Source: the human T2T-CHM13v2.0 reference genome, Homo sapiens. Taken from it: 64,000 bases of DNA. The notes beneath the pieces were generated by a model. It worked only from the letters and a program-made list of their open reading frames with translations. It was not told the origin of the DNA and searched no databases. A program made the position numbers and the translations under genes. Positions 1,607 through 2,127 of the stretch are shown piece after piece. The stretch lies in NCBI RefSeq assembly GCF_009914755.1, contig NC_060935.1. One strand, given 5' to 3'. Each line of letters opens with the position of its first letter. Position 1 is the first letter of the stretch.

Positions 1607-1828
1607 AGTTAATATTTTTCTGTCCCCGGCCGTGGCTCCTCCTCCCCGAGCAGTGGGGCTCGCTGGACAAGTGTCCTCAGATAGTCCAGAAAGTTTGCTC
1701 TGCGGTCCCGGGGACGCCTGCGTGGGACCCAGTGAGGAAAGCGGGGCTGGCTCCTCGCACCTCGGGCAGCCGCCGCTCGAAAGTCTTGGCCCAGGTCCTC
1801 CAGGCCCGGCTCAAACTCAGGAGTGGAA
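1607..1828 (-). other. CpG-rich non-L1 leader abutting the L1 5' end; probable 5'-transduced cellular exon(s)
   Basis: 15 CpGs in 1621-1812, no ATG on the minus strand, ends ...GGGGACAG|AAAAATATTAACT|L1. Bounded on the right by TTTTTTTT/AAA (1829-1839). Confidence 0.65.
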
Positions 1829-2127
1829 TTTTTTTTAAATGAAATAAAATAAAGCCAAGATTAGTTATCTATATAATGTGCATGCTCTGGAGGTAAGCAG
1901 AATCATTTCCTTTTAAAGGTTTGCTAGCTGAATTTCCAAAACAAATGTGCATGCATATACTTTATACTGTATATACATATAACACATACAGTTGAACCTT
2001 TAACAACACAGATCAGAAAAAGCAGAGAAGGTATCAAAGGAAAAAGAGGAAATAATTACATCATCTAAAGCATAGCAACTGCCGTCCTCTCTTCTAGAGC
2101 TGCTAATGGAGCCAAAAGTGAAAGTTA

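What the first reader, a model, noticed from the sequence alone, without database searches (positions are those of the whole stretch)
1607..1839. L1HS carrying a captured CpG-rich leader: probable spliced 5' transduction from a cellular promoter
Seen: on the L1 strand the order is ...CATTT|AAAAAAAATTCC, ~200 nt of GC-rich sequence (15 CpGs, no ATG) ending GGGGACAG, the 13-nt AT-rich piece AAAAATATTAACT, then L1 nt 1. The flank beyond is AT-rich and CpG-poor. The canonical endonuclease site (TTTT/AA, 1836/1837) lies outside the GC block. Established: L1s transcribed from an upstream host promoter can mobilise 5' flanking, even spliced, sequence. Inference: the GC block is a CpG-island first exon (ending CAG like a donor), spliced to an acceptor just before a source L1 whose own TSD is AAAAATATTAACT. 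That implies a lineage driven by a host promoter and tagged by this leader. Retained CpGs suggest it arrived as recently as the L1. I recall, unverified, that a human L1 family sharing a ~200-nt GC-rich leader has been reported, so this may be a known case.
Basis: partly seen in the sequence, partly recalled or inferred. Interest (0 to 1): 0.8.

Follow-up and report, generated by a model that had tools for sequence, protein, structure and literature searches.

The report
L1 with spliced FHIP1A exon leader
A young full-length human L1 retrotransposon on chr11 carries, as one insertion, the first exon of the chr4 gene FHIP1A spliced to 13 bases from that gene's intron; the case is real, but a 2026 catalogue of L1-mRNA chimeras already lists it.

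Summary
A minus-strand full-length L1 ends at window 1606. It is preceded by AAAAATATTAACT (1607-1619) and a 206-nt GC-rich block (1620-1825; 15 CpG, no ATG).

- **Source of the block:** it matches one other place in T2T-CHM13, chr4:154733115-154733320, at 99%. There it lies in a CpG island and is followed by CAG|GTAGGT.
- **Source of the 13-mer:** it lies 27.7 kb downstream on the same strand, as cttAG|AAAAATATTAACT|GTaaag. CHM13 has no L1 at that site.
- **One insertion:** the same target-site duplication, AAAAAAAATTCC(A), flanks leader, 13-mer, L1 and poly(A).
- **No family:** no sibling copy exists in CHM13.

This locus is already in Table S5 of Law & Burns (Cell Genomics 2026, PMC13174262), assigned to FHIP1A exon 1 plus the 13-mer.

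My best reading (about 0.6) is cis-splicing of FHIP1A exon 1 to a cryptic acceptor 13 nt upstream of a sense-oriented intronic L1HS that neither reference carries. The main rival (about 0.25) is a 13-nt micro-exon joined to L1 RNA in trans. Verdict: already known, modest interest.

The parts
1..1606 (-). 5' 1.6 kb of a full-length L1 (5'UTR and start of ORF1). The element is 6019 nt to its terminal TATAAT and continues about 4.4 kb beyond the left edge of the window.
   Evidence: the L1 starts GGAGGAGGAGCCAAGATGG at window 1606. The ORF1 ATG is at L1 nt 907, with a stop at codon 49. The 3' 1 kb is 99% identical to all 39 other copies scored.
1607..1619 (-). 13-nt piece AAAAATATTAACT, copied from FHIP1A intron 1 (CHM13 chr4:154761021-154761033). 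There it is preceded by AG and followed by GT.
   Evidence: Law & Burns Table S5 maps it to hg38 chr4:151438001-151438013.
1620..1825 (-). 206-nt copy of FHIP1A exon 1, from the transcript start region to the splice donor. It differs from the CHM13 chr4 exon by 2 CpG transitions.
   Evidence: 99%, query 15-220; donor CAG|GTAGGT; differences at positions 58 and 103; 17 CpG in the source, 15 in the copy.
1824..1836 (-). 5' copy of the target-site duplication AAAAAAAATTCC(A). The last 1-2 bases could equally be the first bases of the leader. The 3' copy lies outside the window at chr11:90887526-90887538.
   Evidence: Table S5 gives the same 13-bp TSD.
1833..1838 (+). L1 endonuclease site TTTT/AA, with the nick between 1836 and 1837 on the + strand.
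   Evidence: Table S5 records the cleavage site as TT/AAAA.

Best explanation
One L1 retrotransposition event inserted a chimeric RNA into chr11. The RNA consisted of FHIP1A exon 1, 13 nt of FHIP1A intron 1, a full-length L1 and poly(A). That much is shown.

The inferred origin is as follows. A sense-oriented full-length L1HS once sat in FHIP1A intron 1, directly after ...AAAAATATTAACT, with a probable TSD of AGAAAAATATTAACT at a TT/AGAA nick site. Transcription from the FHIP1A CpG-island promoter read into it. The exon 1 donor (CAG|GTAGGT) was spliced to a weak cryptic acceptor (cttAG|) 13 nt upstream of the L1. The L1's own poly(A) signal ended the transcript, and the L1's proteins copied this RNA in cis into chr11. 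The purine-rich GGAGGAGGAG at the L1 5' end may have acted as a splicing enhancer for that weak acceptor; this is inference only.

The source L1 was an unfixed allele and is absent from both CHM13 and hg38. The chr11 copy did not found a family. It now has a stop in ORF1 and a frame change near the end of ORF2.
For: - **One event:** identical TSD AAAAAAAATTCC on both sides of leader, 13-mer, L1 and tail, plus a TTTT/AA site and a poly(A) tail.
- **Exon origin:** one match, at chr4:154733115-154733320, 99%, inside a CpG island (901-2000 of L002: 68% GC, CpG o/e 0.81, 6 GC boxes), ending at CAG|GTAGGT. That donor scores at the 99.8th percentile of 11,045 GTs on a crude matrix.
- **13-mer origin:** AG plus the 13-mer has 54 forward-strand hits in 3.1 Gb. 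One lies 27.7 kb downstream of the donor on the sense strand, where about 0.0005 are expected in 27.7 kb.
- **Site context:** it fits an L1 target. TT/AGAA gives a 15-nt TSD; only 3.2% of random positions in 200 kb have such a site at 13-15 nt, and 13% at 7-20 nt.
- **Weak micro-exon donor:** the GT after the 13-mer scores at only the 74th percentile of all GTs, so it is an unconvincing donor.
- **Precedents:** in RAP1GDS1/L1PA2 the source L1 is still in the intron, and the cryptic acceptor lies 15 bp upstream of it (PMC13174262 section 14). The 8q21.11 source L1 produced 22 spliced 5' transductions (PMC12350158 passages).
- **Young element:** the 3' 1 kb is 99% identical to all 39 other copies scored, out of 3,934 candidates. 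A polymorphic source that was later lost is therefore plausible.
Against: - No L1 is at the chr4 site in CHM13. The site reads as a clean single copy of the 13-mer.
- No other L1 in CHM13 has this 5' junction (1 match, the window itself, at up to 2 mismatches).
- No young sense L1 lies in the 200 kb downstream of the exon; the best is 93-96% identical.
- hg38 also lacks the source L1, going by the paper's statement that 15 of 17 gene loci have no intronic L1.
- The 13-mer is followed by GT, a 5.5% coincidence under this model. Law & Burns record that GT as a splice donor.
- Taken alone, the two coincidences (GT versus endonuclease-like site) do not favour cis over trans. My preference rests on priors about mechanism.
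- The offspring tail carries no chr4 3' flank.
Confidence: 0.6

Rival explanations
1. Micro-exon plus joining in trans. The 13-mer is a tiny exon (AG|13 nt|GT) spliced after FHIP1A exon 1. This partial mRNA was then joined to nt 1 of an L1 RNA transcribed elsewhere. The joining could be trans-splicing, RNA ligation, or an end-to-end jump of the reverse transcriptase onto a free 5'-exon splicing intermediate. This is the model Law & Burns favour for loci without an intronic L1.
For: The 13-mer has AG before it and GT after it. Table S5 lists that GT as the splice donor. No source L1 is in the gene in CHM13 or, per the paper, in hg38. Other chimeras in Table S5 (MAP3K13, FHIT) join an annotated donor directly to L1 nt ~1, which cis-splicing explains poorly.
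Against: The donor ACT|GTAAAG lacks G at -1 and +5 and scores at the 74th percentile of all GTs in 200 kb. AG-N13-GT occurs 747 times on that strand. The 13-mer is not part of the annotated exons of the assigned transcript: it is absent from the Mapped_exon column. A capped L1 RNA has no acceptor at nt 1. The endonuclease-like TT/AGAA site at the right distance would be a 3-13% coincidence.
Confidence: 0.25
2. Template switch during reverse transcription. On reaching the 5' end of the L1 RNA, the reverse transcriptase jumped to an internal position of a spliced FHIP1A RNA, 13 nt into a cryptic exon, and copied it to its cap.
For: L1 chimeras with U6 and other RNAs are established (PMC13174262 introduction). 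The L1 part begins at nt 1.
Against: Both the GT after the 13-mer (5.5%) and the endonuclease-like site (3-13%) would be coincidences. A 13-nt identity between the exon 1 3' part and L1 nt 1-13 was available for annealing, but the junction does not use it. The paper also disfavours template switching where splice junctions are present.
Confidence: 0.07
3. The L1 inserted next to a pre-existing GC-rich sequence (an older retrocopy 5'UTR or a local CpG island), so leader and L1 are separate events.
For: None found.
Against: The TSD AAAAAAAATTCC brackets the whole unit, and the 3' flank does not carry AAAAATATTAACT. The leader is 99% identical to its source, with 15 of 17 CpGs kept. The 13-mer comes from the same gene as the exon.
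Confidence: 0.01

Closest known systems
The same locus in Law & Burns 2026 (Cell Genomics, PMC13174262), Table S5: hg38 chr11:90966272-90972302(-), FHIP1A ENST00000503146.5
   Same: Same element, same 13-bp TSD AAAAAAAATTCCA, same TT/AAAA site. Same mapping of the leader to FHIP1A exon 1 and of the 13-mer to the intron.
   Different: The main text never mentions FHIP1A (0 occurrences). The table treats the GT after the 13-mer as a donor, and the paper leans to trans-splicing. I read the 13-mer as the 5' flank of a lost intronic L1. The leader printed there for hg38 differs from the CHM13 copy at 5 sites (compared by eye).
RAP1GDS1/L1PA2 chimeras (same paper, section 14)
   Same: 5' exons of a host gene spliced to a cryptic acceptor a few bases upstream of an intronic sense L1 (15 bp there, 13 nt here), then retrotransposed with a TSD around the whole unit.
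   Different: There the source L1 is still in the intron, lacks part of its own promoter, and gave 4 copies in the reference. Here the source is missing, the L1 5'UTR is complete, and there is 1 copy.
8q21.11 source L1 with 22 germline 5' transductions (Nature 2025, PMC12350158; passages only)
   Same: An upstream host promoter, with the first exon of a host transcript spliced towards a full-length L1.
   Different: There the acceptors lie inside the L1 body, the source is known and many offspring exist. Here the acceptor lies in the flank and the L1 is complete from nt 1.
SVA_F1 (MAST2 exon 1 spliced onto SVA); Hancks & Kazazian 2016, PMC4859970 (passages)
   Same: A CpG-island first exon captured by splicing at the 5' end of a retroelement mobilised by L1.
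   Different: That is an SVA, not an L1, and it became a successful subfamily. [quoted passage not shown]
U6/L1 and other small-RNA/L1 chimeras
   Same: A bipartite insertion with one TSD and non-L1 RNA at the 5' end, in sense orientation.
   Different: Those arise by ligation or template switching, usually onto 5'-truncated L1, and involve no splice junctions.

Membership tests
Spliced 5' transduction / mRNA-L1 chimeric insertion | One target-site duplication flanks the non-L1 leader plus the L1 plus poly(A) | tested here: met
   AAAAAAAATTCC(A) at window 1824-1836 and at chr11:90887526-90887538.
Spliced 5' transduction / mRNA-L1 chimeric insertion | Insertion at an L1 endonuclease site, with a poly(A) tail | tested here: met
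   TTTT/AA at 1836/1837. The tail reads A7 (TAA)8 AAAAATTAATTTAT A11.
Spliced 5' transduction / mRNA-L1 chimeric insertion | The leader maps in sense orientation to a unique locus elsewhere and begins in a promoter region | tested here: met
   There is a single other match, chr4:154733115-154733320, inside a CpG island. Agreement with an annotated transcript start is taken from Table S5 and was not tested here.
Spliced 5' transduction / mRNA-L1 chimeric insertion | The leader segment ends at a splice donor, and the next segment starts after an acceptor | tested here: met
   CAG|GTAGGT after the exon; cttAG| before the 13-mer.
Classical (cis) 5' transduction | A source L1 lies directly downstream of the transduced flank at the source locus | tested here: not met
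   There is no L1 after the 13-mer in CHM13. The junction 32-mer occurs only in the window. No L1 with more than 96% identity lies within 200 kb. Other human genomes could not be searched.
Leader-tagged L1 lineage (a family of siblings) | Two or more insertions with different TSDs sharing the same leader | tested here: not met
   2 candidates, 2 scored, namely this copy and the chr4 exon. 5'-truncated siblings would be invisible to this search.
L1HS (human-specific L1) | Very low divergence from other young copies, and diagnostic 3'UTR bases | tested here: inconclusive
   The 3' 1 kb is 99% identical to all 39 other scored copies. The 3'UTR reads ...GATGACACATTAG.... That ACA marks the Ta subset is recalled, not taken from a call, and ACA can arise from ACG by CpG decay. 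No ape genome was available to test absence.

The most novel reading that the evidence does not exclude
The 13-mer is a true micro-exon, and a host mRNA fragment was joined to the very first base of an L1 RNA made elsewhere. That would be RNA-level recombination (trans-splicing, or a jump onto a free 5'-exon intermediate) in a young, human-specific element. A milder variant is that the GGAGGAGGAG at the L1 5' end acts generally as a splicing enhancer. Sense intronic L1s would then become exon traps, with cryptic acceptors switched on 10-20 nt upstream.
Probability: 0.25. Interest if true: 0.55.

Novelty: already known. Interest (0 to 1): 0.3.

Why it matters
Spliced 5' transductions show that an L1 can be driven by a host promoter and can pick up host exons. 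This is one route by which L1 5' ends may evolve or escape promoter-targeted silencing. This copy is one of 17 catalogued in hg38 and is probably one of the youngest. It may therefore be the best case for settling cis versus trans, because its source L1, if it existed, could still segregate in living people and be found in pangenomes. As a discovery it adds little. The locus is published, it founded no family, and the copy is no longer coding-competent.

Tried and rejected
- **Source L1 in CHM13:** the junction 32-mer at up to 2 mismatches found only the window. BLAST of the element against 200 kb downstream of exon 1 found no young sense L1.
- **Relatives by private markers:** the 5'UTR variant 33-mer had 6 matches. 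One is the window itself at 0 mismatches. The other five, at 1 mismatch, share only a recurrent CpG change. The tail 27-mer is unique. Neither identified a parent.
- **3' transduction from chr4:** the tail piece AAAAATTAATTTAT does not match the chr4 site's 3' flank GTAAAGAG. Rejected.
- **Homology-driven joining:** the exon 1 3' part and L1 nt 1-13 share GGAGGAGGAGCCA, which only 1 of 5000 dinucleotide shuffles reach. However, the junction does not use it. The motif followed by a non-A base occurs 475 times in the genome against 58 for the control. A 12-nt match also occurs in the reverse complement of the same CpG island. I treat it as a low-complexity coincidence.
- **Population evidence for a chr4 L1 allele:**
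  - A search for FAM160A1 + LINE-1 + insertion returned 1 paper. From its listing it looked unrelated, and I did not open it.
  - The one held supplement of PMC12350158 is cut and lacks the transduction tables. Six terms gave 0 hits, and '8q21.11' gave 0 hits. This remains open.
- **hg38 leader comparison:** I did not run the hg38 leader printed in Table S5 through any tool. The comparison with CHM13 is by eye only.

Full report
**What is in the window.** The window is T2T-CHM13 chr11:90892001-90956000. Read on the minus strand, the order is as follows:
- AT-rich flank ...CATTT;
- AAAAAAAATTCC;
- a GC-rich block running from (C)ACTCCTGAG to GGCCGGGGACAG;
- AAAAATATTAACT (1619-1607);
- an L1 starting GGAGGAGGAGCCAAGATGGCC at 1606.

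The block 1620-1828 is 67% GC, has 15 CpG and no ATG. The flank beyond it is 33% GC with a single CpG.

**The L1.**
- I fetched 8 kb to the left of the window. The element is 6019 nt from its first base to the terminal TATAAT.
- ORF1 starts at nt 907 and has a stop at codon 49.
- The ORF2 frame is open from 1980 to 5922 (1314 codons), but the usual stop lies in another frame. This points to a small indel near the end.
- The 3' 1 kb is 99% identical to each of the 39 other copies scored, out of 3,934 candidates. That fits a human-specific L1.
- The 3'UTR reads GATGACACATTAG. That ACA marks the Ta subset is my recollection, and it could also arise by CpG decay.

**One insertion event.**
- On the L1 strand the 3' end reads ...TATAAT A7 (TAA)8 AAAAATTAATTTAT A11 | TTCCAAATGATATG.
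- The 5' flank reads ...CATTT AAAAAAAATTCC | leader.
- The target-site duplication AAAAAAAATTCC(A) therefore encloses leader, 13-mer, L1 and tail, at a TTTT/AA site.
It excludes an L1 landing beside a pre-existing GC-rich sequence.

**Where the leader comes from.**
- A whole-genome search with the 233-nt interval gave two candidates, both scored: the window itself and chr4:154733115-154733320 (+), 99% over 206 nt.
- At chr4 the segment sits in a CpG island. Positions 901-2000 of locus L002 are 68% GC with CpG o/e 0.81, and there are six GC boxes in the 300 nt upstream.
- The segment is followed by CAG|GTAGGT. On a crude donor matrix built from recalled frequencies, this scores at the 99.8th percentile of 11,045 GTs in 200 kb.
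- The copy differs from the source by two CpG transitions. It keeps 15 of 17 CpGs.

**Where the 13-mer comes from.**
- AG plus the 13-mer occurs 104 times in the genome (54 forward, 50 reverse; reversed-pattern control 25 and 24). Of these, 100 were listed.
- One hit is at chr4:154761019 (+), 27.7 kb downstream of the exon 1 donor. About 0.0005 such hits are expected in 27.7 kb of one strand.
- The context is ...catgcttAG|AAAAATATTAACT|GTaaagag..., with no L1.
- The 32-mer spanning the 13-mer and the L1 start occurs only in the window, at up to 2 mismatches.
- Across the 200 kb downstream of exon 1, the best sense full-length L1 is only 93-96% identical (chr4:154834349-154840505). No stretch in these loci read N.

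**Already published.**
- Law & Burns (Cell Genomics 2026, PMC13174262) catalogue 17 hg38 L1 insertions with mRNA or lncRNA sequence at the 5' end. I read the abstract, sections 13, 14, 20 and 21, and parts 1-2 of supplementary file mmc5.xlsx.
- One Table S5 row is this locus: chr11:90966272-90972302(-), TSD AAAAAAAATTCCA, TT/AAAA, FHIP1A ENST00000503146.5. It is mapped to chr4:151409260-151409465 plus chr4:151438001-151438013, with a 'splice donor' at chr4:151438014-15.
- The main text does not name FHIP1A.
- The paper notes that 15 of the 17 gene loci hold no intronic L1, and it leans towards trans-splicing.
- For RAP1GDS1 the paper shows cis-splicing to a cryptic acceptor 15 bp upstream of an intronic L1PA2.
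- A Nature 2025 paper (PMC12350158, passages only) describes the 8q21.11 source L1 with 22 spliced 5' transductions. The SVA_F1 MAST2 family is another candidate (PMC4859970, passages).

**Cis or trans.** I measured how often each coincidence arises at random positions in the 200 kb of FHIP1A sequence.
- A GT follows a position 5.5% of the time.
- An endonuclease-like site (TT/AAAA with at most 1 mismatch) giving a 13-15 nt duplication occurs at 3.2% of positions, and one giving 7-20 nt at 13%. The real site has TT/AGAA at 15 nt.
- These two coincidences roughly cancel, so they do not decide the matter.

Four things tip me towards cis:
- The GT after the 13-mer is an ordinary one: ACT|GTAAAG, at the 74th percentile of all GTs. 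AG-N13-GT occurs 747 times on that strand.
- The 13-mer is not in the annotated exons of the assigned transcript.
- A capped L1 RNA offers no acceptor at its first base.
- RAP1GDS1 is a precedent with almost the same geometry.

A young L1HS source that never reached fixation is also unremarkable. I put cis-splicing to a lost intronic L1 at about 0.6, a micro-exon joined in trans at about 0.25, an internal template switch at about 0.07, and separate events at about 0.01.

- There is no lineage. CHM13 has one copy.
- Only transcribed exon sequence was carried, not the promoter upstream of the start site, so the host promoter was not inherited.
- That the 13-mer is exactly the source's duplication cannot be shown. 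A 15-nt AGAAAAATATTAACT fits the endonuclease site better.

**Limits.**
- No other human or ape genome could be searched.
- The transduction tables of PMC12350158 were not visible.
- The donor and acceptor scores use a rough, recalled matrix.
- The comparison with the hg38 sequence printed in Table S5 was made by eye.

Noticed in passing
window 1620-1825, compared with the hg38 sequence printed in Table S5 of PMC13174262: By eye, the hg38 copy of the leader differs from the CHM13 copy at 5 of about 206 positions, and four of the five are CpG transitions. None is shared. Relative to the chr4 exon, hg38 has 3 private changes and CHM13 has 2. The first 400 nt of the L1 differ at 2 more sites, while both copies share other private L1 variants, so they are the same insertion. 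This is far above normal allelic divergence. It suggests a deep haplotype split soon after insertion, or very fast CpG decay of the captured exon.
   Followed up: partly
window 1633-1645 and 1594-1606 (minus strand): The 3' part of FHIP1A exon 1 and the first 13 bases of the L1 are identical (GGAGGAGGAGCCA). Only 1 of 5000 shuffles reach this. However, the motif followed by a non-A base occurs 475 times in the genome, and the junction does not use it. It is probably a low-complexity coincidence.
   Followed up: yes
L004 3539-3587 (chr11:90887539-90887587), outside the window: The L1 tail is composite: A7, (TAA)8, AAAAATTAATTTAT, A11. The 27-mer spanning the odd piece is unique in CHM13. It could be a very short 3' transduction inherited from an earlier source, or tail microsatellite growth.
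   Followed up: partly
window 1-749 versus 2431-3177: An older L1 fragment in the opposite orientation lies about 0.8 kb beyond the 5' end of the element. It forms inverted repeats with the element's ORF1 region: 584 nt at 90% and 162 nt at 88%. A read-through transcript could fold back on itself here.
   Followed up: no
L017-L018, chr4:154834349-154840505 (+): A full-length, sense-oriented older L1 (93-96% identical to the chr11 element) sits in the FHIP1A region, about 73 kb downstream of the 13-mer site. It is too diverged to be the source.
   Followed up: partly
window about 553-555 (ORF1 codon 49), and L1 nt about 5812 outside the window: ORF1 carries a single premature stop, which looks like a CGA-to-TGA CpG change. 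ORF2 stays open for 1314 codons but misses its usual stop because of a frame change near the end. The copy is therefore not coding-competent.
   Followed up: yes
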